64,000 nucleotides of DNA, from assembly GCA_002269645.1 (NCBI GenBank), contig NIVC01000038.1, positions 1,446,197 through 1,510,196 of the forward strand, read 5' to 3'. Under the pieces are notes generated by a model that saw only the letters and a list, made by a program, of their open reading frames with translations, was not told where the DNA came from and searched no databases. Made by a program: the position numbers and the translations under genes. Numbering within the stretch: position 1 is the stretch's first letter; every line of letters starts with the position of its first letter. The DNA is from Macrostomum lignano. Lineage: Eukaryota. Positions 13,700-33,900 of the stretch are shown here, piece by piece.

Positions 13700-14786
13700 C
13701 AGGAGTTGCTGGCGCCACCGTGCCTTGCAGCTCATGGCCAGTATGCCGGGATACCTGGACAGCCGGGAACCTCTGCCGGCGCTCCCCCTCTGCCCCTGGC
13801 AACGACCGCCAGCCACGCGCACGATCCGCTGCAACCTCACCGCGCCCGCTGGCGAGGCCGAGGAGACCGAAGAGCTCTCGACCGAGGTCGCTGCTAAGGA
13901 AACACTTTGGAGGCGCGCCCCGAAGGCCACCCGCAATTGCGCAGCCGATCTAGTGCTCTACACGGATGGCTCGGCCACTGACGGCTGCGCCCGCGGTGGT
14001 GCGGCCTGCGTGGTCACCAGCGGCGACCCGGCCGACCCCGAGATGGTCACGACGATCTCAGCCACCGGCTCGCCGCACACCTGCAGTTTCGATGAAGAGA
14101 GACGGTCTCTACAGCTCGCTACTAACTGGCTCCGCAACCAGCAATTCACAGGACGGGTCCTCATCTGCACGGACAGCCGCGCCCTCCTCATGGCTCTCCT
14201 GAGCGACAGGCCCCGTTGCTCGCTGCTCGACCTGGACTGCCAAGCTGCCGCCCTGGTGCTTCAATGGGTCCTGGCACACTGCGGCATCCCCGGGAACGAG
14301 CTGTCCGATGAGGCTGCCAAGCAGGCGGCCGCTGCTGATTCCGCCCCGGCACCCATCTCCTACCACAGCGCGTTGGCGACGATCAAGCGGCACTTCGGAG
14401 ACCCGCCACTCACGCACGCACGCACCGCCGCGGTTTACAGGGCCCTCAACAGGGACCGCGACCGCGCCGAGCTGCGTAGCCGACAAGACGCGGTGCTATT
14501 GACGAGGCTCCGCTCGGGACACTGCAGTTTTCTCCGCGCCTACTGCAACGTCGTCAACCCCGCCGCCGACCCGACCTGCCCGCGCTACCAAGACGGTCCG
14601 GAGGACCTGGAGCACTGGCTCAGCTGTCCGGCCCTCCGGCCCACCAGGCTCTCTATTTTCGACGAGGACGAGTTGGGCCTTTCGGTTCTGACCGCCGCCC
14701 CTGCGACGTCAGTGGCGCTTGCGAGGCGCAGCCTCCTCTGACTGGCCTCGGCGCCTGTGCCCCAACAAAACAAAACAAAAAACAAA
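13700..14786 (+). mobile_element. 5'-truncated Ingi/I-group LINE (E4): RNase H plus zinc finger
   Basis: LYTDGS, EERRSL, ICTDSR, WVLAHCGIPGNELSDE, RLRSGH, EDLEHWLSCP. Stop at 14739-14741; (AACAA)n tail followed by (GCA)n. Confidence 0.9.
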
Positions 14787-14789
14787 GCA

Positions 14790-15837
14790 GCAGCAGCAAC
14801 AGCAAGATCAAACATCAGGTTCTCGGCTGCTCGCAGAAAATCTTCCAGCAGCTGCCGGATTCACTGTTGTTGCAAAGAGCGATATGAAAGGACCGCCTTT
14901 AAAAGACGAAGGAGTCGTCAAGCTCGACTCAGATCCGAACAAGTGCATAGAAGGTTTCTTTGCGAAATTGACAAAGCCGCCCGTGAAATCTACAATTGGA
15001 ACAGAAGATACAGCTACCAAAAGGTTCATTTGAGTCATGATGATCGCCATGCATTCGAGATTGCTACAGAGTGCCACTACTGCAAGCAGAGCTTCTGAAA
15101 CTCAATAGACAAGCATCTAGACCATGATCATCTTACTGGACTCTTTAAAGGTGCTTCCTGTGCCCGATGCAACATGTCGGCTCAGCTACGGAGGCACTTT
15201 CTACCAGTGTTTTTGCACAATTTAAAAAATTACGACGCACTTAGTTTTTTCTACCGCTCTTGATCGAATACAGGACTGGAGCATCAATGTCGTGCCACAA
15301 ACATCTGAGAGGTATCTTACGATGCGAGCTGAGTTTCCAGTCGCTGAGATTGTTACGCAGAGTGGCAAGAAAAGGGTACTGAATTTCACCATCCAGTTTG
15401 TTGATACGTACCAGTTTATACGTACCATTAGAGGAATTACCTTTGTTAATTATCATTGCGCACGTTTGACCGAAGCTACTTCCTCCAACGAAACTTTTGC
15501 AGCAGCAGATTCGAATGTTCCGACCACTGAATCTCTTGTTCCAATTGACATCAACAATTTGTACGTACATGCGCTATCAATGAGACTTCCAGTGGACTCA
15601 TTTGAATGGGTGTCTAATGAAGAGCTCGAGCGATGGAATGAAATGACAATTCTTCAGTCGAGAGATGACGACGAATTCGCTTATCTATTGGAGCTGGATC
15701 TCGAATATCCAGAAATAATTCACGATGAAACCAAAGAGCTGCCTTGCACCAGAAAAGTCCACTCCAGAATTCGAAGACTTTCCAGACTTTATGAAAGAAC
15801 TGTGGTTCACGTTGCATGCTCATCAAACGTATTGTAG
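14790..15837 (+). pseudogene. polB: Decayed Polinton/Maverick-type protein-primed DNA polymerase B with endonuclease VII-like zinc insert
   Basis: Across frameshifts and stops: AFEIATECHYCKQSF..KHLDHDHLTGLFKGASCARCNM..LPVFLHNLKNYDA, IQFVDTYQF, RGITFV, SLVPIDINNLYVHALSMRLPVDSFEWV (motif A equivalent of D.NNLYG), YLLELDLEYPEIIHD. It has a large internal deletion and is 3'-truncated. Confidence 0.85.
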
Positions 15838-17254
15838 TGACTGGCTGCTAACTGGCTATTCAGCAGCATTCATTAGCTTTCCCTAAGAGTGCTGTGATCC
15901 GCTGCACAGTTGCTCAGTCCACCTCATCAAGTGAGAGAGTTACCCTGTGCTGGGCCTAAGTGTTTACTGTCCGATGACTCATCGCCTGAGCAGGCGTGGG
16001 CAGCCACACTCAATGTCTTCCCACTCGCGCTGAGGAGGCGTAGCAGGATGACTCATCACCTGCACGGAGTGTAATGGCTGCCTAGAGGGAGTAAACAGGA
16101 TGACTTGCCTCATCCGCCCAAGTTCTATTTTTAGCACAGAATAAGCGCGTGACTGTGCACACACACACACTGTACGTGGCCACTGACCTTGAGTCACGCC
16201 ACTGCTGCATGACAGGGTTGCCTTATTTGGAAGTTGGCCTTGGATCACGCGTCGCTCGCATGATTCTGAGGACCAAATAAGGAAGTTTCACGCGCTCACC
16301 ACATGAAACTCACGTGACTTTTGGGGGTCCGCTCGGCTATAAATACGGAGCATCTGGGAGCTTTTTTCTCCAGATCGCGTCGCAGCGCATCCTGCGTCGT
16401 CTCGCGAAGCTTCATGGCTAACTCTTGAAGCCTCCTCCGAGCTCTTCTCTCTCATTTCAGGTTTTTCAGGTTCGAGCAGCATCTACTAGGAACGATCGAC
16501 TGTCGAGACATTTTTCAGATTTGCCTTTGCTTTGGTCACTATGCTTTGTTGAAATCGAACAGCTCGAAGCGTCCACGTCAGGTTCCTACACTAGCGAGCG
16601 ACGTTATTTATTATGACATTTGTCAGTTTATTGAAAGTGAACTAAATTTTCTTTGTAAAGAAAAATCTAAACTATGAGTACCTTGATCAAGCTACGTTCT
16701 AAATATTTTTACAATGCTTATTTCAGAGTTCGCATACTTATTTTCAATCGGGCAATAAATTAGCCTTTCCATGCCTCAACCATTTTTAATGTTTTTACTG
16801 TCAGTGTTGCTTCACTTTTCCTGGCTTTGAAAAGCTCCTCAAGTCGCTTAACTACATGTAGCCTACTGTTAGATATCTTAGGCTCTCTAAACTAATCCAA
16901 AAGTGTGTGCACTTTTTTCAATTTGCTTAATTTGATAAGAATGTGGCCATTATGGCTATTCACCTTTTGCAGTATCTAGTTGAGTAGCTATACTGTCGCA
17001 GTTCTTGAATTACGTGTTTTTGTTTCTTTTATAAATCTTGCTTTGCATTTTACTCTACTGTGCTGCCCTTTATAAATTATCGGACTAACTTTTCATGTAC
17101 CTTACTTTCCGATACTCATTTTATTTTGACCATGTTTATATTGCTTCTTACATGTACTTTCATTTCTATGTAGTTTTTGTTTTACATAATGGTCTTACTA
17201 TCGTAAAGCGTGTCATTTAAAAAAAATAAACCGTGAAACGAACTTCAGTCCTGG

Positions 17255-17703
17255 TGTGACGCGACCCTTCTTGTTCGGTGCTGACGGCTATGCACTTATC
17301 AATAAATGAGTCTACGTAGCAAGAAAGTTTAGAATTTTAACTTCGACTGATTGTATTTAACCGTATTATATTATTTATTTGAAGACAGGAGTTAACTGTT
17401 GCTGTTAAATTATTGGTAGTAAGTACTAAGTATGGCGAATAGGCACAACGCGGCGGACAAACCAACAGCACACACGAGCCCAGCGAGACACGAAACACTA
17501 GAGAACAAAAATGCGATATAACCCACTTTTAAATAATGCAATACCCGTATTTCTATGAATGATACAGTAAAACAAATTTCATGTATAAATATAGAATAAA
17601 TTTAAGATTCGTTTAATAAATAGTAGCTAGAGTAATAATATAATACTAAAAATGCATTAATAACACTAGAATATTTTCAGAAATAAATATCAACATCGTT
17701 ACA
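17255..17703 (-). repeat. 3' LTR of the Gypsy element
   Basis: TGTGACGCG...CGTTACA. By eye it differs from the other LTR at one position (AAAAATGCATT vs AAAAAGGCATT). Confidence 0.98.
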
Positions 17704-17716
17704 CTCGCCTCTCCTC
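17704..17716 (-). other. Polypurine tract (PPT)
   Basis: GAGGAGAGGCGAG on the minus strand, immediately before the 3' LTR. Confidence 0.85.
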
Positions 17717-17849
17717 AAAAAAGCAATACAGCTACTTACAGTAGTATCGAAGCACATGACCAAAATTTAATGACGATATAAACTTATATATTGGCTATCG
17801 ACGGAATTTTAATTATAGGCTCAATTGGCCCGGAAAGTTGGCAACAGCA

Positions 17850-18097
17850 AATCGACACCGTTGGCAAAAATCGACACCATTGGCAAAAATCGAACACATT
17901 GGCAAAAATCGAACACATTGGCAAAAATCGAACACATTGGCAAAAATCGAACACATTGGCAAAATCGAACACATTGGCAAAATCGAACACATTGGCAAAA
18001 TCGAACACATTGGCAAAAATTGAGCACATTGGCAAAAATTGAGCACATTGGCAAAAATCAAACACATTGGCAAAAATCGTACACATTGGCAAAATCG
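17850..18097. repeat. 19/20-bp tandem repeat (AATCGAACACATTGGCAAAA), about 12 copies, in the Gypsy 3' UTR
   Basis: Direct periodicity; explains the ORFs at 17784-18259. Confidence 0.95.
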
Positions 18098-18563
18098 AAG
18101 CAATATTCGAACAACGAACGATCAATAGCTGGTATACCTGTAATAATATTCAATAATCAATATTTTTTTGTATTTTTTAAAAATATTTTAGAACAACTGT
18201 CAAAAGGAAATATAAAATGCAAACGGCCAATAGAGTTAAATACACGGCAGCAACTGTAATTCAACGGTGGCAAATTCAAAAGACCGGCGGCAAATTCGAC
18301 TGTCTCGGCAGCGCGGCGACAGCTTCGCCGACACAGACTGCAGCCCAACGGCCACAGTCAGACTGAACTCCTATCTAACTAAGCCATTTCTAGACAAACC
18401 TAACTAGGATCAAAAAACCCAATCCGAGGATTAAGGGCTATGATCACGGCAATAAACTAGACTAACCTACGATAAATTTAAGATGACATTTGACAATTGA
18501 ATAACGGAACCCTAACCGGCGCACAGAGAACACAGGCACACAGCACACGACACGCCAAAATCC

Positions 18564-21296
18564 CTACTCCCCGCTACCTTTACCAAAAAGATTAGCCAGC
18601 AAGGAACGAAACCTGATGGGCGGTCTAATTGCGCGCCCAGACCTTGTGGTTGTGACAGCTGGCTGTTCTTGAGTGGCTTGCTCGTGCTGTTCTGAAACTT
18701 TCTGTTCTTGTGCTACTGGTGCCTCAGGTTGTGGTTGCTCTGTCGCTTGTGCTTCAGTTCTGACTTTTTCTGGCAAATTTTCTGCAGGTTCCGTGTGTGG
18801 CTGCACGGTGTGTTCTGTGACTGGCTCAATGGCTTGCTCTGTGATTGGCTCAGTGCTTTGCTCTGTGATTGGCTCAGCAACATGTTCTGTGATTGGCTGA
18901 GTGATCTGTTCTGTGATTGGCTCTGTTGCCGAATCTGCTACTGTTCCTATGGCTGGCTCCGTGTCTGGTTCAGATACCGACTGAGCACTCTGATGCTGGA
19001 TGGAGTGCTGACTCGGAGGAGGAACGGTCTGCTGCTCACCCGGACAGACTGGACCCGGATCGAATCCTGACACCCAATCAGAGCAGTCAGAACTACAGCT
19101 CAGCTGCCTAGAGTCTTCATCACCCTGTCCTAACCTCGAGGAATGAGGCATCCTCGCAACCAATTCTAATCCAAACCTGTCGGCGACATCCTGATAACTA
19201 GACTGGCGAATGCACCTTTTCATACGATCTACATTGTAAATCTTGTGGCTCGGATTCGGAGTTTTAAACTGATTCTCACACGCTAACTCAGGAACTAACC
19301 GATAATTTCTCTCTGAAATTTTCTGCGCGACCTTGTACGGCCCAAGCCAGACCGAAGGATCGAGGCCCTTGTGGTCGGGGTTTAACACCCACACGAGCTC
19401 TCCTACCTCAAAACTAGATTTAAACACTGACCGATCGTAGTACCTCTTCTGTCTAGACTGCGCCTTCTTCCTAAAAGCTCTGGCGGTGGCAGAGGCTTCA
19501 ACTAGAGTTCGGTGGAGCAGGTGTGCATAACTGGCTGGGTCATAGCGCTCATGCCTAGGTGGGTTGTACATCAAATCTAGCGGCATCTGGAATTCCCGGC
19601 CTAAGAAAAGCTTGGCAGGCGTCATGCCGGTGGAATCGGATTCTAATGACCTAACGCTCATCCCTGCGCATCTCGCGGCAAAAGGCCAGGTCACATGCCT
19701 TTCAGCAGTGACTGCACGGACTTGACTTTTGATGGTTTGAATCGTACGCTCCACTTTGCCATTGGCCTGAGGGCGACGGGCAGTAATTCTAACAGTGTCA
19801 ATTTCTAACAAGCGGGTTAACTCGGCTACAATGCTATTGATAAACGCTGTCCCATTGTCCGAGACCAATTGCTCCATTGTGCCGTAGCGAGCAATCCACT
19901 CCGTCAGGATCGCTGCTGCGGTTGTCTCAGCAGTTACGTCTCTCACAGGAATGATTTCTAAGAATCCAGAAAATCTGTCTACCATGACAAGCAGATATCT
20001 GAATCCATCCTGTTCCGGAAATGGCCCACAATGGTCTACATGGACAACCTGATTCGGATATCCCGCTAGAGTTGGCAGCATCGGTGCTTTATTCTTGCGT
20101 TTGTTTTTCTTAGTTCTGGCGCAAATCTCGCAACTGGCAACGACACTCTTGACAACTGTTTCCAGGTTGAAAATTTGGAAGTTCTTCTTTAAGATACCTA
20201 ATGTCTTCTTGACTCCGGAATGGTTGATCAATCTGTGGTAAGAGGTCACTAATTCGTCTATGTTTGCACTCTCCGGAATGACAGTCAGTTTAGCGGCAGG
20301 CTTCCTTTTCTTAGCTGGTCTATTTCTAACTAGTACATTTTCTTCCACCGACAGCTCACCAAACATGGCCCATAAGGCTCTCAGCTCCCGGCTATGGCTT
20401 TGAAGCTCCTGCTTGGACAACCTTTCCTCTCTGCCCGCTACCGCGTTTCTAAGGTACACCACGTCAATATTCGATTCCTGCGCGCTGCGAATCCATTCTC
20501 TTTCTTTCTGCTCAGCTTCTTCCTCATCTTCACTCTCACTATCCGACCCAGAGTCTATGGCGGCTACATCGGATCTACCCGGGTCCTCCACTTGAACAGC
20601 ATGAGCCGCAGCTGGGGACCGGGTCTCTGGTTCACTTCCAGCTGTGTCCGTGCCCGCAACAGGAGTTGGGGCGGCTAAGTGCTCGCTGCCGTGGGCTAAC
20701 TCATTAACTTCAGTGAAACGCTCAGTCTGAATAGCTAAATCTACTACCGGCTTGTCCTGCGCTGGGACCGTAAATTGGGACTCAGCTTCCAGGGTCTGAC
20801 TACCCGTGGAGGCGAGGGTCTGGGTGCTACTATCGACGCTGATGCGGTTGGCTTTGACTTCACTAGGCTCCGATGGCGCTACATTTTTACCCTTCTGGAA
20901 CTTGGCTTTGAAATCTGGGATCAAGCTGCAGGTTGGGCAATCGAAATGGTCTGCTCTGAACTTGGGATTTCGACTGAGGATGTCTGCGTTAACGTGATCT
21001 AGACCGGCTCTGTGGTTCACTTGGAAATCGTACTCCGCTATCCTTTCTAGGGGCGTCTGGTCGACCTTAAACGTATACGGTTCCAGGGTGACCAACCACT
21101 GAGCTAGCATGCCGGTTGCGTGCTTCTTTGAGTGCAACCACTTTAAAGCAACGGCATCGGTTCGAACTAGGAACTCACGGTCTAGGAGATAGGTTCGAAA
21201 TTGCTCTAGCATCAAGACCAACCCTAGAAGCTCCCTCATAGTCGCACAATAATTGCGCTGCGCACTACTAAACTTCTTCGACGCGTAGGCAATCAC
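18564..21296 (-). CDS. pol: Gypsy Pol C-terminal part: RNase H remainder, acidic linker, integrase (HHCC, DDE, GPY/F), repetitive tail
   Basis: IAYASK, ELLGLV, FLVRTDA, HVNADILSR; YHRLINH..CEIC; VHVDHCGP, VSDNG, NGKVERT; WLGPYKV; terminal TRSGRAIRPP. Confidence 0.95.
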   Translation of the reverse strand: MIAYASKKFSSAQRNYCATMRELLGLVLMLEQFRTYLLDREFLVRTDAVALKWLHSKKHATGMLAQWLVTLEPYTFKVDQTPLERIAEYDFQVNHRAGLDHVNADILSRNPKFRADHFDCPTCSLIPDFKAKFQKGKNVAPSEPSEVKANRISVDSSTQTLASTGSQTLEAESQFTVPAQDKPVVDLAIQTERFTEVNELAHGSEHLAAPTPVAGTDTAGSEPETRSPAAAHAVQVEDPGRSDVAAIDSGSDSESEDEEEAEQKEREWIRSAQESNIDVVYLRNAVAGREERLSKQELQSHSRELRALWAMFGELSVEENVLVRNRPAKKRKPAAKLTVIPESANIDELVTSYHRLINHSGVKKTLGILKKNFQIFNLETVVKSVVASCEICARTKKNKRKNKAPMLPTLAGYPNQVVHVDHCGPFPEQDGFRYLLVMVDRFSGFLEIIPVRDVTAETTAAAILTEWIARYGTMEQLVSDNGTAFINSIVAELTRLLEIDTVRITARRPQANGKVERTIQTIKSQVRAVTAERHVTWPFAARCAGMSVRSLESDSTGMTPAKLFLGREFQMPLDLMYNPPRHERYDPASYAHLLHRTLVEASATARAFRKKAQSRQKRYYDRSVFKSSFEVGELVWVLNPDHKGLDPSVWLGPYKVAQKISERNYRLVPELACENQFKTPNPSHKIYNVDRMKRCIRQSSYQDVADRFGLELVARMPHSSRLGQGDEDSRQLSCSSDCSDWVSGFDPGPVCPGEQQTVPPPSQHSIQHQSAQSVSEPDTEPAIGTVADSATEPITEQITQPITEHVAEPITEQSTEPITEQAIEPVTEHTVQPHTEPAENLPEKVRTEAQATEQPQPEAPVAQEQKVSEQHEQATQEQPAVTTTRSGRAIRPPIRFRSLLANLFGKGSGE

Positions 21297-21303
21297 CTGT
21301 TCT

Positions 21304-24300
21304 TTACCGTTCCTGTCTAGCTGGGAAAGGACTGGGAAATGGGAAAGGACAGTTCCCTTGCTGAGAAAGGGAACTGTCGCAGTCTAGGATGAAGGTACCC
21401 GCGCTAGGACTCAAGTCTGGGTAGGTCAACACTGGCGGCTCACACAGGCTCGCCTTCAGTTCCTGAAACGCATTCTCGTGAACTTGGCGCCAGACAAATT
21501 TCTCTGAACTTTTGGCTAAGGCGTACAGAGGCGTGGCTATGATAGAAAACCTGGGGACAAACTTTCTGTAATAATTAGCAAACCCCAGAAAGGATAACAG
21601 CTGCTTTTTGTCCCTAGGGGTACACCACTGTCGCACTGCTTCCGTCTTGGTGGGGTCCGCTTCAATCCCTCTCGAGGAGACCACGAATCCCAGAAACCTA
21701 AGCCTGTCTTTGAACAATTCACATTTAGATGGCCTGATCTTCAAGTTGGCTTTCCTAAGCTGCCAGAAAACAAGCGCTAGGTGGGATATCATCTCATCGT
21801 TATTCCTAGCCTTGATGATGATGTCGTCAAGGTAAATCAGGCTGACTCGCAACAGCAGTGGTCTGAAAACCTTATGCATAAGCTTAGCAAAACTGGCTGG
21901 GGCGGTCTTTATCCCGAAGGGAACAACGGTCCAACGGAAAGTCCCCTGAGGGCAGGAAAACGCGGTGAGATCGCGGTCAGCTTCCCTGATTCCTACTTGC
22001 CAGTACGCGCTCGTCAGATCTAAGCTGCTGAATACGCTGGAGCCCGCCAAACTATCGAATGACTCTTCTATCAGCGGCACAGGAAATGAGCACGGCTTTA
22101 TGTGCTTGTTTAGGGCGCGGTAGTCTACGCACAGGCGATACGTACCGTCCTTCTTTTTCACAAGCACAATTGGCGAAGACCAGTCAGAGTCACACTCCTC
22201 AACCACTCCCTGATCTAAAAGCTGGGCAATATGCTTGTCTAAGAACTCTTTCTGGGCCGGCGTTGTCCGCCTGGACGGTTGGGAAATCGGGCGGCAACTC
22301 GGGTCTTTGAGCTCGATCGTCATCTCATGCAGCGTGGTCTTGCCTAGATCTGTTTCGGACTGAGAAATTTGACTAAGGAAATAATTTAACATTTTTACGG
22401 TGGTATCCAGCTGCTTCTTAGTTAGGTTAGAGTCTAGCAAATTGAACTGGTTCATTAGCCACTTGGCTGTTCCTGGGTCTGGGTAGGGTAGTCTTGCCAG
22501 CTTGTCGTTAAGCAGATCTACCTTGTCGAAGCTGAAATCGCTTTCGTTTAGCCGGGTGCACACCACGCTCTCGTCGTCCCCTAGCTTCTTAAATGACGCT
22601 ACCTCCTCACCCTTGGCAACAGTAATCTCTTCTTCACTGCTATTCAGGACCCTAACTAACACGTGGCTGGTGGGGCTGACCTGGTCTAGAGAATTAGCGA
22701 CCACGATGGCCGAATCTGAATTGAACAGCCTCGCGCTGACAACCCCATGGGCGTTGCTCTCGGCGTCTATGGCTCTAGCTGGGACCAGGGCTTCTGAGCG
22801 CGGCGGCAGGACCGTGTCGCAAGCGGCGACCACACGGTTCACGCTACAGATGTCACTAGATCCCCGCAGGGTTGGGACATTCTCCCCTGCGCAAGTCACA
22901 CGGTCACAGGCCATGTCCATGACAATTTGGAAACTGCTGCAGAAATCCAGTCCTAAAAGCGTCTCACTCAGGGAGCCATCGATAACTAGGAAAATATGCT
23001 GCTTCTTCAGTTTGCCTAAGCTCAACTCACACTCGAGCTTTCCCAGGATTTCTGAGCTGGCTCCGTTGAACCCAGTCGCAGTTCGCTGGATTTGGGCGGG
23101 GGTGAAGACATTATTGATGGGATCCGCCTCTACTAGCCTGTCTCTTATCTTGGGGCAAATCAGCGATGCATTGGCTCCAGGATCCAAAAGGGCCACGGTC
23201 TTCGTCTCTCCGACCTCAATCTGAACATAAAATCCCGCCTTGTAGTGGGGCAGGTCGGAAGAGGCCTCCGCACACTTGGGGTCTACCGAATCTGCAGTCA
23301 CGCTGATGGCCCGGTCCCTGGTCTTTCCAGCTTCAGCAACTCGGCCGAAGGTCACATGGGTGCCCACTAGCTGGTGGTTTAAGGCCAGGTCCATCAGGGG
23401 CTGCACTAGCTGGGACAGGTGCACGAAAACTGAGTCTCCGATTTGGGAGGACCGGACGAACCCGTAGGAATCCTTCCAGTGGGTCACTACCCCCCTCTCT
23501 CTGGGCGGTCTCGGGCTCGACTTCCCTCTGTCCTTTGGGTCGACGAACGGCTGCGGAGCCCTGAACTTCGAAGGTGGCGCACTGGCACCCGGCTCTCTGG
23601 GATAGGGACACTCTGCGATCAGATGGTCTGTCTCCCCACACCTAAAGCACTTCGGTGGCCTACGGTTCTTGTGATTATAGTTACTGGAGTTCAGGACATG
23701 CTGCGGTGGCTGAAAACTCTGGGCTCCAGGGTGTCTATTGTCGTTTACTGTCGTTTGCTGCTGACTTGACTGTTTCCTTTCAAGCTCCTTGATCCTTGCC
23801 TTCAGGGCTTGGATCTCGTCTGACTCAACACTACGGACTTTCGGCGGTTCTGCTAATTTGAGTAATTGCCTAGTTTGGGCGGCGTCTCGTGCCCTGTTTA
23901 AAAGTCTTTCGAGAGACGGCCTTGGCTTCTCTTGCAGCAAATTGATTAACTTTTCTGCGATTGACTTGTCAGTTAACCCATAGCAAAATCGCGTCCTAAC
24001 TAAAGGCTCGTACTCATTGCGGCTTAAGTTCGCAGAGTTAGCAAGGCTAACGAGGCGATCGAAATATTCTTGAATACTTTCAGACTGCAGCTGCTGGGCG
24101 GAGGTAAGCTCTATATAAAACTGGTCCACATGCGTTGGTTCGCCGTACCGACCCTTAAGCTGCTTAACACCGGTTTCGAAAACTTTCTCGTGCAGTCTCT
24201 GGTTATAGAAGTACTCTTGGCACTCTGGCGACAACGATGACAGCAGTACAGCTGTCCAGTGCTCGCGTCCTATGTTATTCGCTTCTAAGTACAGGCTGAA

Positions 24301-24648
24301 CTGGGTCCACCAAATTTCGAATTTCATTTTGGGCGAATAGGCGGCTGGGGGCCTGAGCCGAGGGCTCGACTTTGAATACTTCACATTGTCACGGATCTCT
24401 GCCAAAGTTCTGGCCAGATCGCCCAGGGAAGTCTCGCACTCCTGCAGGTCACCTTCATCTGTCTCCGCCTCGTCATCACCAGCTGTCTCTGACAATCTAA
24501 TTTTACTGCCTACTGTCTCGCTTCTACCTCCTAGCTCTGTCTCCCCATTCCCACCTCCTGGCTCTGTCTCTCCACTTCTGCCTGTCCTAGCTCCACTCGC
24601 TGCTGGATCCTCTGTACTTGGCTTGGCTACCGACTCGGACTCTGCCAT
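21304..24648 (-). CDS. gag-pol: Gypsy Gag-Pol N-terminal part: capsid, CCHC knuckle, cold-shock domain, protease, RT, start of RNase H
   Basis: CFRCGETDHLIAECP; LLDPGA; WSSPIVLVKKKDGTYRLCVDYRALN; LDLTSAYWQ; PFGIKTAP; YLDDII; FILDCDSS. Separated from the downstream ORF by a net +19-nt lesion near 21320-21378. Confidence 0.95.
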   Translation of the reverse strand: MAESESVAKPSTEDPAASGARTGRSGETEPGGGNGETELGGRSETVGSKIRLSETAGDDEAETDEGDLQECETSLGDLARTLAEIRDNVKYSKSSPRLRPPAAYSPKMKFEIWWTQFSLYLEANNIGREHWTAVLLSSLSPECQEYFYNQRLHEKVFETGVKQLKGRYGEPTHVDQFYIELTSAQQLQSESIQEYFDRLVSLANSANLSRNEYEPLVRTRFCYGLTDKSIAEKLINLLQEKPRPSLERLLNRARDAAQTRQLLKLAEPPKVRSVESDEIQALKARIKELERKQSSQQQTTVNDNRHPGAQSFQPPQHVLNSSNYNHKNRRPPKCFRCGETDHLIAECPYPREPGASAPPSKFRAPQPFVDPKDRGKSSPRPPRERGVVTHWKDSYGFVRSSQIGDSVFVHLSQLVQPLMDLALNHQLVGTHVTFGRVAEAGKTRDRAISVTADSVDPKCAEASSDLPHYKAGFYVQIEVGETKTVALLDPGANASLICPKIRDRLVEADPINNVFTPAQIQRTATGFNGASSEILGKLECELSLGKLKKQHIFLVIDGSLSETLLGLDFCSSFQIVMDMACDRVTCAGENVPTLRGSSDICSVNRVVAACDTVLPPRSEALVPARAIDAESNAHGVVSARLFNSDSAIVVANSLDQVSPTSHVLVRVLNSSEEEITVAKGEEVASFKKLGDDESVVCTRLNESDFSFDKVDLLNDKLARLPYPDPGTAKWLMNQFNLLDSNLTKKQLDTTVKMLNYFLSQISQSETDLGKTTLHEMTIELKDPSCRPISQPSRRTTPAQKEFLDKHIAQLLDQGVVEECDSDWSSPIVLVKKKDGTYRLCVDYRALNKHIKPCSFPVPLIEESFDSLAGSSVFSSLDLTSAYWQVGIREADRDLTAFSCPQGTFRWTVVPFGIKTAPASFAKLMHKVFRPLLLRVSLIYLDDIIIKARNNDEMISHLALVFWQLRKANLKIRPSKCELFKDRLRFLGFVVSSRGIEADPTKTEAVRQWCTPRDKKQLLSFLGFANYYRKFVPRFSIIATPLYALAKSSEKFVWRQVHENAFQELKASLCEPPVLTYPDLSPSAGTFILDCDSSLSQQGNCPFPFPSPFPARQER

Positions 24649-25737
24649 GACCTTGGCAGCTAAGTATTACAGACACAGAGTACAGACACACTGGCAGGCA
24701 ACTAAAAGAGGGAACCCAGCAAGAAAAGAGCTAAGAATAAGAGAGAAAGTGGCAGCTTATAAAATAACTTAGCTATTGAGTCTCAATCTGTAAGCAATCC
24801 TATTATAGTTACTGCCACAATAGGCCCTATTCTACTTGACAAAAATGATGAATTCAGTCTTAACTGCGACGCTGAACTGCGGGTCCGGCCGTTGAAGGAG
24901 CTCGCCGCTCGCCAGGTCACTCGGTTCACCGCTCGGTTCGGTCTGTCTCAGCTCGGCTCGACTCGACTCGACTCGACTCGACTCGACTCGACTCGACTCA
25001 ACACAGCTCGACTCGCCTCGGTCGCTGACGCTGCCCAGCACTGGCCGGCGTTATCGATGGTCACCGCTGGCTGTAGGCTTAGGCTGAAGTCGCAGGCTGA
25101 TGAGTGATGACAGATTGCACTTGCACTGTTGACTGCAGTAGGCCCTCGCGCAGGTTGCAATCACAGGCAGTGTCCAATTGTAGCTGCAGCGGGCGCTTTA
25201 CCGGTGCGGCGCTCTCAACTCAATTAAAAATGAGGAGTACTCGCAAGCAGACAGACAAAAACACGATCCGATGACTCAGCAGACTTGTTGACAGATTTTG
25301 CAGAATTAGGCTGGCCTTGGGTTGGTACAAAACTGGTAAACAACTTAAGCCTTAGGGTTATTTCTTGACTTGTATTAGCCTCTAGGTCCGACAGACTAGC
25401 AAATTTGTGTTGACGATTGTCACGTGACTAATTGGCTGGCTGGGTTGGCTGCGGGTGGATGGCCTTGGCTTTGATCGCGTGACTTGGGGGTTGTTGTCCA
25501 GTTCAGAGTTGGCCGCCAAAGCGTAAACTGGTTCAGACCGGTTTTCTAGATCGGCAGACAGTACGCTCAGTACTTTGCAGTGGCGCTAGCAGATAGGCGG
25601 CTGACTGAGGTACAGGCAATGTCACTGGCAGTGGCAAGTTGGCTTCCTGTTGTCGACTGCAGATTGCATACGATGCAGATGGTTAGCAATGGTTGTCGGC
25701 GATGTAGATTGCAGGCTGGGTCAATTTTAATTTAGCC

Positions 25738-25755
25738 ATCTCGGTGGGACCTCCA
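25738..25755 (-). other. Primer-binding site complementary to the tRNA-Gln 3' end
   Basis: Minus strand TGGAGGTCCCACCGAGAT is the complement of ATCTCGGTGGGACCTCCA, the conserved metazoan tRNA-Gln 3' end as I recall it. It lies 6 nt from the 5' LTR. Confidence 0.85.
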
Positions 25756-25761
25756 AAATAA

Positions 25762-26210
25762 TGTGACGCGACCCTTCTTGTTCGGTGCTGACGGCTATGC
25801 ACTTATCAATAAATGAGTCTACGTAGCAAGAAAGTTTAGAATTTTAACTTCGACTGATTGTATTTAACCGTATTATATTATTTATTTGAAGACAGGAGTT
25901 AACTGTTGCTGTTAAATTATTGGTAGTAAGTACTAAGTATGGCGAATAGGCACAACGCGGCGGACAAACCAACAGCACACACGAGCCCAGCGAGACACGA
26001 AACACTAGAGAACAAAAATGCGATATAACCCACTTTTAAATAATGCAATACCCGTATTTCTATGAATGATACAGTAAAACAAATTTCATGTATAAATATA
26101 GAATAAATTTAAGATTCGTTTAATAAATAGTAGCTAGAGTAATAATATAATACTAAAAAGGCATTAATAACACTAGAATATTTTCAGAAATAAATATCAA
26201 CATCGTTACA
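25762..26210 (-). repeat. 5' LTR of the Gypsy element
   Basis: 449 bp, near-identical to 17255-17703. Confidence 0.98.
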
Positions 26211-26263
26211 CTGGATTTGCTCAACCATTTTCAAATCACTTAATTTGCAGAAAACCTTCCAGT

Positions 26264-26530
26264 TTATTTATTCATGGACAAACTGAGACAGCAAGCATTG
26301 CAAAAAATTGAATCAGATCGTAGCATACGCATAGATTTCGCGCCACAGAGAATGTAAGACCCAGTGTGAAAAAGTAAGCACTTGTAGTACTGAATTTTGC
26401 AGGAAAGTGCAGAAAAAGTTTCTGGTTTATACTGAACCTTCTGTACCATCATAGCTAAAGCAGAAAGAGGCAGCACATTGTTAATTTCAAGTCTTCCACG
26501 AGCAGTAATAGTTTTAATTCGAACACAAAG
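26264..26530 (-). pseudogene. Divergent TATA-binding-protein-like repeat in the Polinton relic
   Basis: IKTITARGRLEINNVLPLSALAMMVQKVQYKPETFSALSCKIQYYKCLLFHTGSYILCGAKS aligns by eye to a TBP core repeat (..YEPELFPGLIYRM..LLIFVSGKVVLTGAK). Confidence 0.65.
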
Positions 26531-26534
26531 TTAG

Positions 26535-26877
26535 CACATTGAACTCTGTTTATATTGCCTCGGAGCCAAAAGCCATTTGTTTTAATCTCTCGAAACAAAT
26601 TATAAACCAGAGATTAAATTTTAGGTTTCCAGCCGAGGGAGTTGAACAACTCAATGGAATTTCCTTGCCCAACATAGCATACCACCCAGTGACCAAATGA
26701 GCCATTCTGCTGAAGTAGGACAAAAACAAACTTGTTTTCAAGGTAAATTGATGATCGAAATTTTCTTTTTACATTCAAGGGCAGAGAATTTTTATAGCGC
26801 AAATGTAAAGTAACTATGAGAAATTTTTGGCAACACGAAAATTTTCTGACAGGATCAAATAGCTGAATTGCGTCCAT
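26535..26877 (-). pseudogene. Polinton adenain-like cysteine protease, decayed
   Basis: MDAIQL.. and GHWVVCYVGQGNSIELFNSLG (His motif; usual FDS reads FNS), in-frame stop at 26614, then NINRVQC. The ATG is 5 nt after the capsid stop, the MCP-PRO order typical of Polintons. Confidence 0.75.
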
Positions 26878-26882
26878 TCCAG

Positions 26883-27385
26883 TTAAGAGGAATAGTCTAG
26901 CAAAAGCTCTCGGTGCTTGGTGACCTCAATCAGCGATTCATACAGGCACATAACAATCAGGGACACCGCTTCATTCAGAGCCTGTTGGAGGCGAATCTCC
27001 ACCGCAGGTTGCCCTCCTTCTGTCCGTACCACAGAGCCGCTCCCTCGGGTGTGAGATCGAATGCAAACACCGTGTTGTTGTTGGAGGGGATAGGGGATCC
27101 ACGGAACCGAATTCGTGTGGCTTGCAGATTGACAGCTTTTTAGGTAGTGTAAGTAGTATTCTCTTACAAAGGATTTGTTTTCAGGTGTGAAGGCGCCGTG
27201 GCACACTGTTTCTTCACCTTTCTTTAGAGCCAACCGGCTGAGGTTGAAGCTCTGGAACTGGAACGGGCTCGAGTGATGATGACCATTGAATGCTCGGTGG
27301 CTCACGAAGGCCAGCATGATGAACTTCGGCAATTTTTAATGAAAGAATCCTTCAATGTTTTTAGACTTGATACCCTGGGGTCGAT
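26883..27385 (-). pseudogene. Polinton major capsid protein (PY) C-terminal third
   Basis: KLPKFIMLAFVSHRAFNG..SPFQFQSFNLSRLAL..; AVEIRLQQALNEAVSLIVMCLYESLIEVTKHRELLLDY matches the PY C-terminal consensus. One frameshift. Confidence 0.85.
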
Positions 27386-27762
27386 TAGTGAGTGTGGCTG
27401 TGAATGAGGCAGTGAATGAGGCTGTGATAGTGAGTGAGGCATATTGTACCTAATCTACGTTTCATGCTGGTTAATGCGCATGTTTTATTTTGAATATAAG
27501 TAATTTGGTGTCAAAATGAGTCACTACTGAAGTGAGGCAGTCCACCCCTTTGAGTCTAAAAGCATAGTGGATTTGACACGTACTATGAACGTGAAATATT
27601 TTGACCACCCCATTTCGAACCAATGAAAATTAGAGTGAACTTGTTGATGTCGAACATAAAGTCGAACATGATGTCGAATATAAAATGGGACTTCAGTTGG
27701 CCTTTCAAAGAACCAGATTTCTAATTGTCAATTAATTTCACTTTTTCAATAAATTAATCCAA

Positions 27763-30005
27763 ATGTCCAAACAATTGGAGTTCATAAAACAGCTGATAAG
27801 CCGCAAAGGCAAATGCTATGACGTCGCTAAGCGGCAAAAGTCGTTTGAGAAAGAGCTCGCCGCGTCTGATCGATTCCAGTTAATGGTAAGTGAAGGTGAA
27901 GAGCAATATTTTTACCAATAACTGCCCTGTCTCTACCATTCTGCTCTGTCTCTACCATTCTGCCCTGTCTCCACTTCTGCCCTGTCTGTACCAATTTCTA
28001 CCAACAACTGCAATTTTTCTACTCAGACCGATACGTCACAACCCGGCTCAGCTGAGCAGCCGCCCGCCGCAGCTCAGCAGCCGCCCGGTCCAGCTGAGCA
28101 GCCCAAGTCGCGTGCCGGGCAGGAGTACATTTGCCCATTCGGTGACTGCCTGCCAATAAAAGAGTCCCGTTTTAGTGACCACATGAAAAGAGCGCATCTG
28201 AATCTGCTCGAAGAGACGAAACAAAATCTGGCAAAGGATGGGGTTCCTGCATTTCTTCTACACAAAAGAGCCCTCCAGATTCTGCGTGCTTCTGGGAAGC
28301 TCAACACGCATCAGCTGACTGCCGGCCCAATGGCAGAGAAGGCGGTACAGTGCGACATCTGAGGCGAGTGGCGCAACGACAGAAATTTGCTGGCGAGCCA
28401 CACACACAACAGCCACCCAGACGCAGCAAGAGCTGCAAAGGAGCAGAAGCTGGCTGAGGCCAGAAGCAGAGTGCCGGCTAGACCAGCCGTGGCCGAGCAC
28501 CCGTCGACAGACGACGTTTAGGCACTCTGTGCGTTCTTGGCCAGCTCTCTCGGTGGGCGCAAGAAGCCGGCAATGGTACTCGAAATTCGGTGCTACCTGA
28601 AGTGGCTGATGCGTTCACTTGACATAGAGTCATTCAACTCACTGGTCATCGAAGACCAGCGCGACCGAATCAGCGCATATTTGGACAACCAGACCTACCC
28701 GATCCTCAAGCAGAGCGTCTCAGAACTCGAAAAAGTCGGCAACTTTCTGGTCACCCGACGCTATCAGCAAGTGATTGATGATGGGCTGCTGCAGCACCTA
28801 AAATCGTACAGGCAGTCGACAAAAAATTGGACTGCTAGTTCCATGGGTCCCAAGGCGAAATATTACGCGGACCTGATGGACCGGAAAGAAGAAGAGCTCC
28901 TGACCGGCGACCAAATTAAGGCCGTCTTCGAAATGAAGACCACCGTACTGGAGGAGGCTAGGTGCACAAAAGACCGGTGCGTTCTTATAATCTTTGAAAT
29001 GGCACTCAGTTTTGAAAATGGCACTTAGTTTTGAAAATGGCACTTAGTTTTGAAAATGGCACTTAGTTTTGAAAATGGCGCTTAGTTTTGAAAATGGCAC
29101 TTAGATTTTGAAGTGGCACCTAATCTTTGAAATGGCACTTAATCATGGGATTAAAAAATCTTGGCCTCAACATTGACACAGGACGGTGACATTCCTGGCC
29201 ATCAGGATGTGCATTTGTTTCGGCGATGGAAACGCTAAACCGGCAGGGCGTGGCCTCCGCCTGCAAAATTTCGGACGCACGCCGGTGGCTGAAGTCGCCG
29301 AATGAGCCTTTTGAAGTTATAGAGCACAAGTCAAATGAGGGCCACGGCTCAGCGTGGGCAAGTGTAACACCGTGCGCAGATTTGGTGATGCAGGTCCTGG
29401 TGCAACGATTTGCGAAGAGCCCGAGCGACGACGCTCAGGCGTTTGTATTTCGGTACGGCTCATTGGACCGCCTATTTTACCAGGATAGAAAACGGTACTC
29501 ACCGCTGCTGAACAATGTCACTATTTCTAAATTCCGCGAGTGGCTGGAAGTGATGGGCCTGGAAAACGCCACGGCGGAAGAACAGCGCTTGATGGCAGAT
29601 CACCAGAACCACACCGAAGGAGTGCAGCGCCGCTTTTACCATGTGAGAATTAATCAATTTGTCTTTAAAATCGCTTCACGAGCTAGGAATTTCTCAAGCT
29701 CTTTGAAAGGCTTCACTATATAGTATTTTGTGAAGTTTAGTGTTTATGAAACAAAAAGCTCCGAATAAGAATGTATTTTAAAAATTAAGTTTGCTTTTAT
29801 TATTATTAACATTTTCATCCCACCACGCAATCTAATCAGACCCAGACTAAGAAAAGAAGAGAGAATGACCGCCAGCTCACAAAGCGACTGGTCACAGAGG
29901 GCGCCGGCGTGCGTGAAGAGGACGTCAACGCCAAGGCTCCGCTGCTCGGCAATGACCTGCAATCGGCTGCTGGCAGCTTAGCGAGCAGAATTACCAGCGC
30001 CGCCA
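27763..30005 (+). pseudogene. Intron-containing C2H2 zinc finger plus tyrosine recombinase gene (Crypton-like), decayed
   Basis: Exons 27763-27885, 28027-28976, 29182-29642 and 29840-30005 with GT-AG ends. C2H2 motifs YICPFGDC..SDHMKRAH and QCDI*GE..SHTHNSH. YR motifs LNRQG (Arg), EHKSNEGHGSA (Lys), SKFR, HQNHTEGVQRRFY (His, Tyr at 29637). Stops near 28358 and 28518; frameshift near 29200. Confidence 0.75.
28990..29145. repeat. 20-bp tandem repeat (AAATGGCACTTAGTTTTGAA) inside the recombinase intron
   Basis: About 7 copies between donor 28977 and acceptor 29181. Confidence 0.9.
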
Positions 30006-30049
30006 GTGAGTGCATTATTGTTAAATAAGCTTTGTGAATTGAGATTTTC

Positions 30050-30320
30050 GTGAATTTTGACCTCAGTGAACTTTGTCAATTTGGCCAAGTGAATCAGGAC
30101 CTCAGGACCCTAGGTTACTATGAGTTGCTCAGAACTGAGGACGGTGTACGCAAGGTAGACTTATCTATGGGGCAGACTGATCCAAAGGTAGTCTTGCCCA
30201 AGTCTCTGGATAGTGAAGTATTTCACCAAATCCATGATTCACCGTTAGCGGGACACCTAGGTCGAGATAAAACTTTCCAGAAAATTAAAACTCGATTCTG
30301 GAGGCCAGGATTAGCAACAG
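30050..30320 (+). mobile_element. Short fragment of another Gypsy pol (integrase HHCC region)
   Basis: VVLPKSLDSEVFHQIHDSPLAGHLGRDKTFQKIKTRFWRPGL is the His-His half of the integrase zinc-binding domain. Confidence 0.85.
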
Positions 30321-30329
30321 CAGTTATAT

Positions 30330-30666
30330 CGATATATCTGACTCCAGCGATGAGCCGAACGATACGCAGGCTATAATCACTGTACTTCGCTCAAACCAGC
30401 GTCTGTTGCTGCTAAAGCCGGGCAAATTAGTTCTAGCTAAGTCAAAGGGTCACCAATACTGGCCAGCAGAAGTGACGAAGCGCCCAAGGTCAGGAACATA
30501 TTTAAAAAAACATCATAATAAGTCATGCGACTCGATTCACGTGCTCGAGCCTCGCACCCGTGACTGGGTTAACGACTTCAAGCCATTTTTTCCGATTTCG
30601 AGCAGCGAAATGCCCGATGACCTTAAAAAAGCCTTCGACCTGGTCAAGTTAAGAATGAGCAAATAA
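30330..30666 (+). CDS. PWWP-domain exon/ORF, probably the 3' end of the recombinase gene
   Basis: KPGKLVLAKSKGHQYWPAEV...DFKPFF...DLKKAFDLV fits the PWWP pattern (PGDLVWAK..GYPWWPA). Same strand as the YR gene; exact splice join unresolved. Confidence 0.7.
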
Positions 30667-30927: not shown

Positions 30928-33900
30928 TTTTGTTAATTACTTGATATAACGTGAAGTGCACTTTTTAAGTTAAAGTCTGAACAGGTTCATTGTCTCCATC
31001 TTTTTGAAACCGCATTTTGTTAGATTTGATATTAACGTGAAAAGCACTTAAGTTAAAGTCTGAACAGGTTCATTATCTCCATCTTTTAAACTGTTAAAAC
31101 TACATAGTTAATTGTTTCTAATGAAATAAATATTTAAAAATTTACAAGGACAATTTTCGTTGCTTTCAAGGCATTGAATTTTTTTCTTCAGAATTAGAGT
31201 TTTAAATTTTTCATTTGGATAGGATAAAACATAAAATCATGCTTAAAGTTATCTAACGTATATGGCTTTAATGTTTCACACCTACAAAGACTCTATAGCT
31301 AGTTAGCTATTGTGACAAGGTTAAGATATTTACATGTAGGAGTATAATAGGAAGATAAGAAATATAGGATTTCGATCGATTGATGACAAATATTTATTTG
31401 ACACAATTCTCACAGCTCAGGCATTTTAGTGAACAAACAAGTTCTGTTCTGTCACACTTTGCAATGCAGGGGCTAAATCATCTAAATCAACTAGTAGGCA
31501 GCACTGAATCCAGCCTATCAATCCATGTATATTTTAAATAACTGAATATGGTTTTGCTCACTTGCTCATGCAGGATATAATACCCCGCTTTGAGAGAAAA
31601 AGCAATTTTTTCGACTTTTTTAAAGTTCAAAACAGTTTGTTATTGTCAGAGAACAATTTTTTAATCGATTCGAACTCTTTTGTACAGAAGTAGTACTACA
31701 GATAACACAGCTAGCAGATGAGAGATGTTTGTGACGTTGTCAGTTTCAGTAGCCCCGCCAAGGGCCGTTTGGACATACGGTACCAATATTTTAATATTAC
31801 TAGTTCCGTATTCTCACGTTTACTGTAAGTAGTGCCCTAGGAATCTAATCAGCTGCGTACAATTGTAACCCCGCGTTCAGCGCGCGATCAATAATTTCTG
31901 TTCTTGTTTTTCTCAGTCAGCCAATAGAAATACGCCGCATTAATTATACTAATTTCTCTCGCGCGCCACCCCCAGCCCGGTCCTTATCAGTTCTGTCTGG
32001 CCGTGCGCTCGGGCCCCACTCTCCTTTCGTCCCTTTGCCTTAGCTCCGCCGCCACCCCGTCTGGGGCCTTCGCCTGTTTAGACTTCGTTAGACTCTCGCA
32101 CCCTTGCGAGCCCGTGTAGCTTGTAGGCTCTGACTGCCTTTGCTTGATCATTTGCCTTCTCTCCGCCACGATTTTAGCCACGCTATTGCCACTCCAAGTC
32201 ACGCCACTGCTACTACTTAAACTATTTGCTCTATTGTTGCGTGGTTGCCAGCGCATTGTTAATCAAAGTACAAGACGTAATAATAAACTAAATCTGCAGC
32301 CAACGTTCGCAATAACGCTGATCCATTTACTGCCAAGTGCTACCGCTACAATTCCGCTTTCACTACATTATTTGCCTTCGCTTGTTCTCGAGACCACCAC
32401 GACAATATCGTCACAATGTTGAAAGTCAGGCAATGCATTAATAAAATAGAAGTTTTGTTGTTGTCTAAGTGCTATCCAACTATTAAGCGCCCTTTTACGC
32501 TTCAAAATTCTCATTTTAATTTTTTTTGAAATTCTAGAAGCGATCAAATCTAGTTCGTCACATTTAGTTCCTGTTAGCTATATTTATATCTTATTCGTAC
32601 ACTTGCATTTTGACTTAATACGTATTTTGTGCACTTTTTGTTAAGGAAAGGAATTAAAAATTGTTCAAATTATATACGAAAAAATCATATTAGCTTAACT
32701 ATGTGCAACTACGTGAGCCAAACGTGACCAACATAATTACCTAATAATAATGAGAGCTCATTTTCTTAATTGAGCATTCGACGTTTCGATGTTCTGTATG
32801 TTCTCATACAGTCATAAACCAAGAGTTAGAATAAGAGTTCATATAAAACAAACACATTTTTAGCAATAAAATTGTGTGATCATGATCCCAAGAAGCTTAA
32901 TATACTGTAAAATATTTTTAATTCAGCTATCAGAATGAGCTATAGCTACTGGCGAAGTACCATATCATGATTTGTCCTTCCTAAATAGTCTGAAGTAGGC
33001 CAAAAAGGACGGAATTTTATAGCTGAATCTGTAATATTTCGCATTCTGTCATATTCTGCAATAAAGTTTTTCCTATCTATTTTTTTCTGTCACATTGTCA
33101 TATTTCAACATTTCTGTCACAATGTATACCCATGGATTAGTTTAGAGGCTAGACCAGCAAGAGAGCGTCTTGCTCCAGATAGATTAACTGTCAGGCCAAA
33201 TCAGAAAAGTTATTCACAGAGGATAGCGGCGTTGTTTAACCCATTTAACCTATTACAGCCTAAGAACAAATTAACAATGGCCGACGCCCCATTGCGAGTA
33301 TATGCTAAGAAGAAAATCTACGGCCAAAAGAGAAGGCATAAAGAGCAGGAAGACAACGAGCTCCCGCGAGTTAGGGCCGTACACATAGCAAATCAAGAAG
33401 AACAATGTAAGAAGCACAAGCTGAGAGAAGAAGATAGCGAGCCGAAGGGGAATTTAGTTATCAATGTAGATTGATAACGCTCTTCATGGAGGAGATCCGG
33501 TAGCAGGAAGGAGTAGATCCCATCGACGAACAGGACGAGACCAACTGACGTGCCGGCCAGAGTAGAGCCAGCCTGGGCCTGCACCAGACTCGCTCGTAAA
33601 CTACGCAACACTACTCAGTGGACCTGGGCGAGGAGCCAGCCCCTGAGAGGACCGAAAGCAAACGGCAGGACAGCCCCGGCACGCAGGTGCGAAATTTGCG
33701 CAGGTGCCGCCGCGACCTTAAGCGATTTATTCTAACAACGGGACGAACGGGATAATTCAAGGCCGAGTTATCGGAGGCCTGCATTCAATTACTGGCCACT
33801 ACCCCGCCGGCCACTACCCCGCCGAAGCGGTAAGGTGCTTCGAGATCACCTGCTCTTACTGCTTGCAGTACGCGGAAGGAAAGGTGAGAGGTTTAATTTG

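What the first reader, a model, noticed from the sequence alone, without database searches (positions are those of the whole stretch)
27763..30666. Spliced zinc finger - tyrosine recombinase - PWWP gene: candidate chromatin-guided YR transposon
Seen: four phase-compatible exons with two C2H2 fingers and a complete set of YR-type motifs (R, K, xxFR, H, Y29637), followed on the same strand by a PWWP ORF. A Gypsy integrase fragment lies in between and obscures the join. Established: Cryptons are intron-containing YR transposons, PWWP domains read H3K36 methylation, and LEDGF uses one to steer HIV integration. I do not know of a described YR element with its own PWWP. It begins about 380 bp from the Polinton capsid relic, and some Polinton-like viruses use YR rather than rve integrases, so linkage is possible.
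Basis: partly seen in the sequence, partly recalled or inferred. Interest (0 to 1): 0.75.

Follow-up and report, generated by a model that had tools for sequence, protein, structure and literature searches.

The report
Recombinase transposon carrying a PWWP domain
This is a dead copy of a flatworm jumping-gene family whose DNA cut-and-rejoin enzyme (a tyrosine recombinase) ends in a chromatin-binding PWWP domain likely taken from the host repair gene MSH6; that domain would likely tether the enzyme to chromatin, but steering of insertion sites is untested.

Summary
The gene is real but dead. It has five exons, two stops, a frameshift and a 215-bp Gypsy scrap inside the PWWP exon.
- Recombinase: the family profile hits XerA/XerD, and a relative folds like integron integrase and Cre.
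- Fusion: PWWP lies downstream on the same strand in 17 of 31 paralog regions. One paralog has four open, phase-matched exons. One contig from a guessed-RNA run joins its penultimate exon to the PWWP exon.
- Mobility: ends are sharp across 23 and 15 distinct flanks. There is a young non-autonomous derivative, and empty alleles show one CCCC gained.
- PWWP: under purifying selection and closest to MSH6, but the methyl-lysine cage is incomplete at the aligned positions, so H3K36me targeting is unshown.
- Polinton link rejected: that family carries an rve integrase and no paralog has a capsid nearby.
Verdict: a new variant of Crypton-type transposon. My searches found no YR-PWWP paper. The scan noted YR-PHD elements, not PWWP, on other DNA.

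The parts
27378..28157 (+). Upstream region, exon 1 and intron 1 of the element; also carried (87-92% identical) by a young non-autonomous derivative family
27763..27885 (+). Exon 1 (ATG, 41 codons, phase 0)
28027..28976 (+). Exon 2: low-complexity stretch, two C2H2-like fingers, YR core-binding domain; stops at 28360 (TGA) and 28519 (TAG)
   Evidence: (68% to C2334)
29182..29642 (+). Exon 3: YR catalytic domain (R29241, K29328, R29535, H29610, Y29637); one extra base near 29236
29840..30005 (+). Exon 4: linker, phase-1 donor at the same place as in C2334
30098..30666 (+). Exon 5 with PWWP domain (about 30412-30663), interrupted by the Gypsy fragment
30111..30325 (+). 215-bp Gypsy integrase fragment, 90-95% to most of the 37 non-allelic matches listed; brings stops into the PWWP frame
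26264..27381 (-). Neighbour, not part of the element: Polinton relic (C-terminal third of capsid, protease, TBP-like gene), cut at 27381

Best explanation
The window holds a dead, end-less copy of a Crypton-type DNA transposon family whose single spliced gene encodes zinc fingers, a tyrosine recombinase, a linker and a C-terminal PWWP domain likely captured from host MSH6, and the recombinase would likely excise the element as a circle and reinsert it at C-runs while the PWWP likely tethers it to nucleosomal DNA.
Shown: YR fold and motifs; conserved exon order and phase; one spliced linker-to-PWWP contig; sharp element ends; empty alleles; purifying selection on PWWP.
Inferred: the circle intermediate; crossover inside a CCCC core (filled site = target plus four C); mobilisation of the young non-autonomous family by this recombinase; MSH6 as donor; chromatin tethering. 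A general nucleosome/DNA tether is favoured over strict H3K36me3 reading because the cage is incomplete at the aligned positions.
For: YR identity:
- The family profile hits XerA (E 8e-15), XerD (5.6e-7) and a XerC-like protein, with R, K, R, H, Y aligned. A fourth hit, RaiA at 4.8e-5, is unrelated.
- Window-family exon profile against 10 relatives with Pfam integrase-type hits: hhalign 97.3%, E 2.3e-11.
- AlphaFold model of an intronless relative, pLDDT 93.9, matches integron integrase Z 14.8, XerH 14.3, Cre 13.0.

Fusion:
- C2334 has four open exons in phases 2/0/1 ending in PF00855.
- PWWP lies on the same strand 0.4-3 kb downstream in 17 of 31 YR-bearing paralog regions, and in 12 of the 23 that were chosen by YR alone. 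Some of these regions are allelic.
- A run X1 contig ends at the first base of the PWWP exon and continues with the last 15 nt of the preceding exon.

Mobility:
- 23 distinct 5-prime flanks, 21 starting CCCC; 15 of 15 3-prime flanks ending CCC.
- Empty alleles of the C154 insertion: five C empty, four plus five filled.
- Derivative copies are 98-99% identical at unrelated sites.

PWWP:
- dN/dS 0.08-0.14 in four subfamily pairs with dS 0.57-0.86.
- 32 of 37 database hits are MSH6 by Pfam or name. Best PDB hit is MSH6. The nearest host PWWP in the tree has an MSH6-type N-terminal motif (support only 80/39; motif recalled).
Against: - The splice evidence is one contig (depth 4.5, 8 mismatches in 214) from a run only guessed to be RNA. 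No join between the YR exon and the linker exon was seen, and many contigs were unspliced.
- The fold was predicted for an intronless relative about 24% identical to the window family's catalytic exon, not for the window protein.
- 14 of 31 paralog regions lack a PWWP hit, including the C2184 subfamily, and 0 of 81 database relatives carry one. The recombinase clade therefore exists without it.
- The window's PWWP is only about 30% identical to that of its YR sister C2334, while the YR is 68-77% identical. It falls outside the other 14 in the tree, though the AU test does not reject vertical descent (p 0.42).
- Close pairs give weaker dN/dS (0.31, 0.47).
- No circle was observed. The window copy has no termini.
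Confidence: 0.72

Rival explanations
1. Same element, but the PWWP is a true H3K36me2/3 reader that steers insertion into transcribed gene bodies, a built-in LEDGF.
For: The closest relatives are MSH6 and NSD2/3 PWWP domains. Two of three cage positions stay aromatic in most family members, and a family-specific W lies just upstream. The domain is under purifying selection. That MSH6 reads H3K36me3 is recalled.
Against: The first cage aromatic (Y18 in HDGF2 numbering, PMC3119473 passages) is non-aromatic in all aligned element copies. [quoted passage not shown] No chromatin or gene annotation was available for the insertion sites.
Confidence: 0.25
2. The PWWP exon is captured cargo or acts after insertion (for example keeping the element's own chromatin open), with no role in integration.
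For: Intronless relatives and the C2184 subfamily have no detected PWWP. The window's PWWP is discordant with its YR. Sites are defined by a C-run.
Against: It is retained under purifying selection across two YR subclades with about 40% identity, as the C-terminus of the same reading frame.
Confidence: 0.2
3. The YR is the integrase of the adjacent Polinton (a YR-type Polinton-like virus).
For: Head-to-head position 380 bp from the capsid. 52 of 4,862 coral polintoviruses carry a YR (PMC11131425 passage).
Against: The capsid is 92% identical in DNA to a Polinton copy that encodes an rve integrase. No capsid hit in 31 paralog regions. The element has its own ends. The join has 4 nt of microhomology with both sides truncated.
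Confidence: 0.03
4. A domesticated host gene family rather than a transposon, or a DDE-type element with a 4-bp target duplication.
For: It has introns and shows purifying selection. In 5 of 9 end pairs the last four and first four flank bases are identical.
Against: Sharp ends, many flanks, empty alleles, and most copies broken. No DDE domain. In C4878 the tandem-repeat target appears to have only two C and gives four plus two, which a strict duplication does not produce (single case, and pairing across long arrays may be mis-assembled).
Confidence: 0.05

Closest known systems
Crypton DNA transposons (Kojima and Jurka 2011, PMC3212892, passages read)
   Same: YR as the only transposase, no reverse transcriptase in the element, short (4-6 bp) direct repeat at both termini, proposed circular intermediate, non-autonomous derivatives.
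   Different: C-terminal PWWP and N-terminal fingers instead of GCR1_C or DUF3504. Inverted subterminal 112-118 bp units expanded into arrays of up to about 12 kb, whereas the paper says Cryptons lack terminal inverted repeats. The first H of R-H-R-Y is replaced (S/T/K).
CryptonV (Kapitonov and Jurka 2012, Repbase Reports; seen only as a citation and one sentence in PMC8869645)
   Same: Animal YR transposons with target-site specificity. From memory, the broad NxxRxG / HKT / TxxRK family that my profile reaches resembles them (recalled, untested).
   Different: No enrichment of insertions in tandem repeats here (13 of 37 flanks vs 578 of 1500 control sites, p 0.73).
Integrases with chromatin readers: chromovirus and Polinton rve-chromodomain integrases; LEDGF/p75 PWWP tethering HIV integrase (recalled; LEDGF role also in PMC3119473 passage)
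   Same: A Royal-family reader coupled to an integration enzyme.
   Different: Targeting is not shown.
MSH6 PWWP domain
   Same: Nearest sequence relative.
   Different: First cage aromatic lost; two-residue insertion with a conserved W; moved from N- to C-terminus.

Membership tests
Tyrosine recombinase superfamily | Core-binding plus catalytic fold | tested here: met
   Model of intronless relative matches integron integrase Z 14.8, XerH 14.3, Cre 13.0; profile hits XerA E 8e-15; window family linked by hhalign 97.3%
Tyrosine recombinase superfamily | Catalytic R, K, H-x-x-R, H/W, Y | tested here: met
   R, K, R, H, Y align to XerA; the H of H-x-x-R is S/T/K in this clade
Crypton | YR is the only transposase; no RT or DDE gene inside the element | tested here: met
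   ORF list across the complete 12.7 kb C2334 element shows no other long coding frame; Pfam run on four of its frames
Crypton | Short direct repeats (4-6 bp) at both termini | tested here: met
   CCC(C) at both ends; empty alleles for C154
Crypton | No terminal inverted repeats | tested here: inconclusive
   The very ends are not inverted copies, but a subterminal motif and a 112-bp unit are inverted at both ends
Crypton | Extrachromosomal circular intermediate | not testable with these tools
   Needs junction reads or inverse PCR
CryptonV | YR falls in the CryptonV clade | not testable with these tools
   No Repbase sequences available
CryptonV | Insertion into microsatellites (some families) | tested here: not met
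   13 of 37 flanks vs 578 of 1500 controls
CryptonA / DUF3504 and CryptonF / GCR1_C | DUF3504 or GCR1_C domain | tested here: not met
   No such Pfam hit in window pieces, C2334 frames or 81 relatives
Polinton / Polinton-like virus | YR linked to capsid, ATPase, protease, pPolB in one element | tested here: not met
   0 of 31 paralog regions with capsid; the neighbouring Polinton family has rve
PWWP domain | Pfam PF00855 above cut-off | tested here: met
   Window 29.5 bits, C2334 26.8 bits, cut-off 25.6; Atlas 27 of 30 hits PWWP
Methyl-lysine-reading PWWP | Three-residue aromatic cage | tested here: inconclusive
   By alignment 2 of 3 in most of the family, 1 of 3 in the window; an upstream conserved W could substitute; no structure predicted

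The most novel reading that the evidence does not exclude
An animal tyrosine-recombinase transposon captured the MSH6 PWWP domain and uses it as a built-in LEDGF to aim integration at H3K36-methylated chromatin. The window lineage swapped in or recaptured a second PWWP.
Probability: 0.25. Interest if true: 0.8.

Novelty: new variant of a known kind. Interest (0 to 1): 0.6.

Why it matters
Target choice by eukaryotic YR transposons is thought to rest on short DNA cores. A family that fused a host chromatin reader to its recombinase, has a recently spread derivative (at least 30 genomic matches, empty alleles available) and lives in what is likely a laboratory flatworm makes the role of chromatin in YR integration directly testable. 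It also gives unusually clear ends and a C-run core for an animal Crypton-type element.

Tried and rejected
Searches that found nothing useful:
- Pfam does not see the YR in window or C2334 exons.
- Word-indexed homolog searches found nothing for the YR exon or the window PWWP.
- A single-sequence fold was useless (pLDDT 38). The 9-row profile found no YR in the PDB. Foldseek gave no hit at E<=0.001, though its top ranks were YRs.
- No relatives in viral contigs or metagenome contigs, each with one protein query.
- No holder on record as RNA was listed. The four runs laid are guessed RNA.
- The second empty-site search fell in a multicopy repeat and gave no matching empty allele.
- No element termini in the window.

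Hypotheses rejected or left open:
- Tandem-repeat targeting rejected.
- Independent recapture of the window PWWP neither shown nor excluded (AU p 0.42).
- The two other 98% PWWP hits are alleles or homeologs sharing flanks, not transposed copies.

My frame slips gave junk rows that I did not use: window PWWP, two queries, C2334 exon C, row IL_C903 in the tree. The 217 mismatches most likely come from an ungapped comparison across an indel.

Literature searches for a YR-PWWP element: Polinton+tyrosine recombinase+PWWP (1 listed, not read), Crypton+PWWP, PWWP+transposase terms (listings only, none on topic by title), Macrostomum+Crypton (1 review, not read). Repbase Reports and paper supplements were not seen and may describe such a family.

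Full report
Setting. The window is G000:C38:1446197-1510196 in a 764-Mb genome. NCBI proteins nearly identical to an intronless relative of the gene are named Macrostomum lignano, so the organism is likely that flatworm. Contigs C349 and C1167 share the locus and its flanks at 97-99% and are alleles or homeologs, not transposed copies.

The window gene. Exons are 27763-27885, 28027-28976, 29182-29642, 29840-30005 and 30098-30666, with GT-AG introns. It is dead: stops at 28360 and 28519, one extra base near 29236, and a 215-bp Gypsy fragment at 30111-30325 inside the last exon, whose acceptor at 30097 is in frame with the PWWP. Pfam finds PWWP above cut-off and nothing for the YR or fingers.

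Is it a YR? A search with exon 3 gave 44 matches in the genome, including an intronless 750-aa family at 22-28% identity that aligns at every motif. A profile of these found 81 database relatives. Of those, 8 hit Phage_integrase at E<0.01 (1 above cut-off), 4 hit Phage_int_SAM_1, and 0 hit PWWP. The 62-row profile hits XerA at E 8e-15 and XerD at 5.6e-7, with R, K, R, H and Y in register. The window-family exon profile matches 10 relatives with Pfam integrase-type hits at 97.3%. A model of the intronless relative (pLDDT 93.9) matches integron integrase (Z 14.8, rmsd 3.7, 263 aligned), XerH and Cre. The window protein itself was not folded.

Are YR and PWWP one gene? Paralog C2334 (68-77% identical in the YR exons) has four open exons with phases 2, 0 and 1, about 1134 codons, ending in PF00855. 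Across 31 regions with an intron-type YR hit (window alleles and intronless family left out), 17 have a PWWP on the same strand 0.4-3 kb downstream. Of the 23 chosen by YR alone, 12 do. Several regions are allelic. The genome search gave 68 PF00855 matches in all (a lower bound), so chance adjacency is negligible. In guessed-RNA run X1, one contig stops at the first base of the PWWP exon and continues with the last 15 nt of the preceding exon, across a GT-AG intron. Most other contigs were unspliced, and the YR-to-linker join was not seen.

Is it mobile? Yes, at the family level.
- The upstream end is shared by 40 matches. Among loci held, 23 distinct flanks follow a fixed end, 21 starting CCCC. 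At the other end 15 of 15 flanks end in CCC.
- Most belong to a non-autonomous derivative of about 9-20 kb, largely a 118-bp subterminal array. Four copies compared are 98-99% identical at unrelated sites. It carries window bases 27388-28157 at 87-92%.
- For the C154 insertion three empty alleles exist: five C empty, four plus five filled. C1004 fits the same rule, and C4878 (a two-C target giving four plus two) argues for crossover in a core rather than a strict duplication. That is one case, and end pairing across long arrays may be mis-assembled.
- C2334 has both ends and inverted 112-bp arrays. The window copy has neither end.
- Insertions are not enriched in tandem repeats.

The PWWP. dN/dS is 0.08-0.14 in four subfamily pairs with measurable dS; close pairs give 0.31 and 0.47. 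Of 37 database hits, 32 are MSH6 and none is a YR. MSH6 is also the best PDB hit. All 15 element PWWPs form one side of a branch (90/89, unstarred), nearest to the host's MSH6-like PWWP with weak support. The cage of three aromatics (PMC3119473 passages) is incomplete at the aligned positions: the first is never aromatic, and the window copy also lacks the third. The window PWWP is only 31% identical to C2334's, although the YRs are sisters (100/100). Fast change and domain swap are both open (AU p 0.42).

The Polinton. The capsid piece is the C-terminal third, 92% identical to a copy on C6. That family carries an rve integrase. A search of 61 held regions found capsid only in the window, one allele and the two reference Polintons. 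Capsid and element meet over 4 shared bases with both truncated, which fits a deletion junction. The link is incidental.

Mechanism. Most likely the recombinase excises the element as a circle and reinserts it by crossover in a CCCC core, as proposed for Cryptons (PMC3212892 passages), with fingers and subterminal repeats for end recognition and the PWWP as a chromatin tether. Circle, tethering and MSH6 donation are inferred.

Comparison and novelty. It works like a Crypton and meets the testable Crypton features, except for inverted subterminal arrays. CryptonV membership could not be tested (PMC8869645 and PMC5753468 passages; PMC13465315 passages have no PWWP). Searches found no YR-PWWP element. 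Repbase and supplements were not seen. Earlier scan notes describe YR-PHD elements in another genome (unchecked) and nothing in this genome. Verdict: new variant of a known kind, interest 0.6. The architecture and mobility are well supported; chromatin guidance is the open part.

Noticed in passing
window 26264-26530 (-); L171:1405-1965 (-): This Polinton family encodes a TATA-binding-protein-like gene (Pfam TBP E 7e-8 in the window, 1.6e-21 with two repeats on C1545) between the packaging module and the polymerase.
   Followed up: partly
L171:7330-8097 (-): The Polinton rve integrase has a weak C-terminal chromodomain hit (E 6e-5, under cut-off), a second reader-integrase pairing in the same genome.
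   Followed up: no
G000 genome-wide: Polinton capsid genes are very abundant: 389 candidates, 150 scored, many with open frames of 450 aa or more.
   Followed up: no
window about 17254-26211: Near-complete Gypsy element inserted into the Polinton relic, absent from allele C1167; its gag region has a cold-shock-like stretch (read by eye, not tested).
   Followed up: no
L131-L134, L140-L141, L136-L137: The non-autonomous derivative carries a 118-bp unit expanded to about 12 kb, so the transposon spreads a satellite; C2334 has 112-bp arrays of about 11 and 48 units in inverted orientation.
   Followed up: partly
L052 / L175 (G000:C903:390694-397720): An intronless finger-YR frame and an adjacent endonuclease-RT-RNase H frame begin with the same roughly 40 residues.
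   Followed up: no
L053:756-1556 (G000:C3262): A packaging-ATPase-like frame (read by eye; no Pfam hit) lies about 3 kb upstream of an intronless YR; the only hint of a virus-like context for this YR clade.
   Followed up: no
protein P0086: An unnamed 727-aa protein joins an MSH6-type N-terminus and PWWP to a DDE_1 (Tigger/pogo) domain; chimeric contig or a second MSH6-PWWP/transposase fusion.
   Followed up: no
window 31729-32416: A separate 690-bp dispersed repeat with many genomic copies at 73-89%.
   Followed up: no
window 14742-15837 (+): Fragments that look like a protein-primed DNA polymerase B (by eye; no Pfam hit for the one tested), probably the far part of the Polinton relic.
   Followed up: partly
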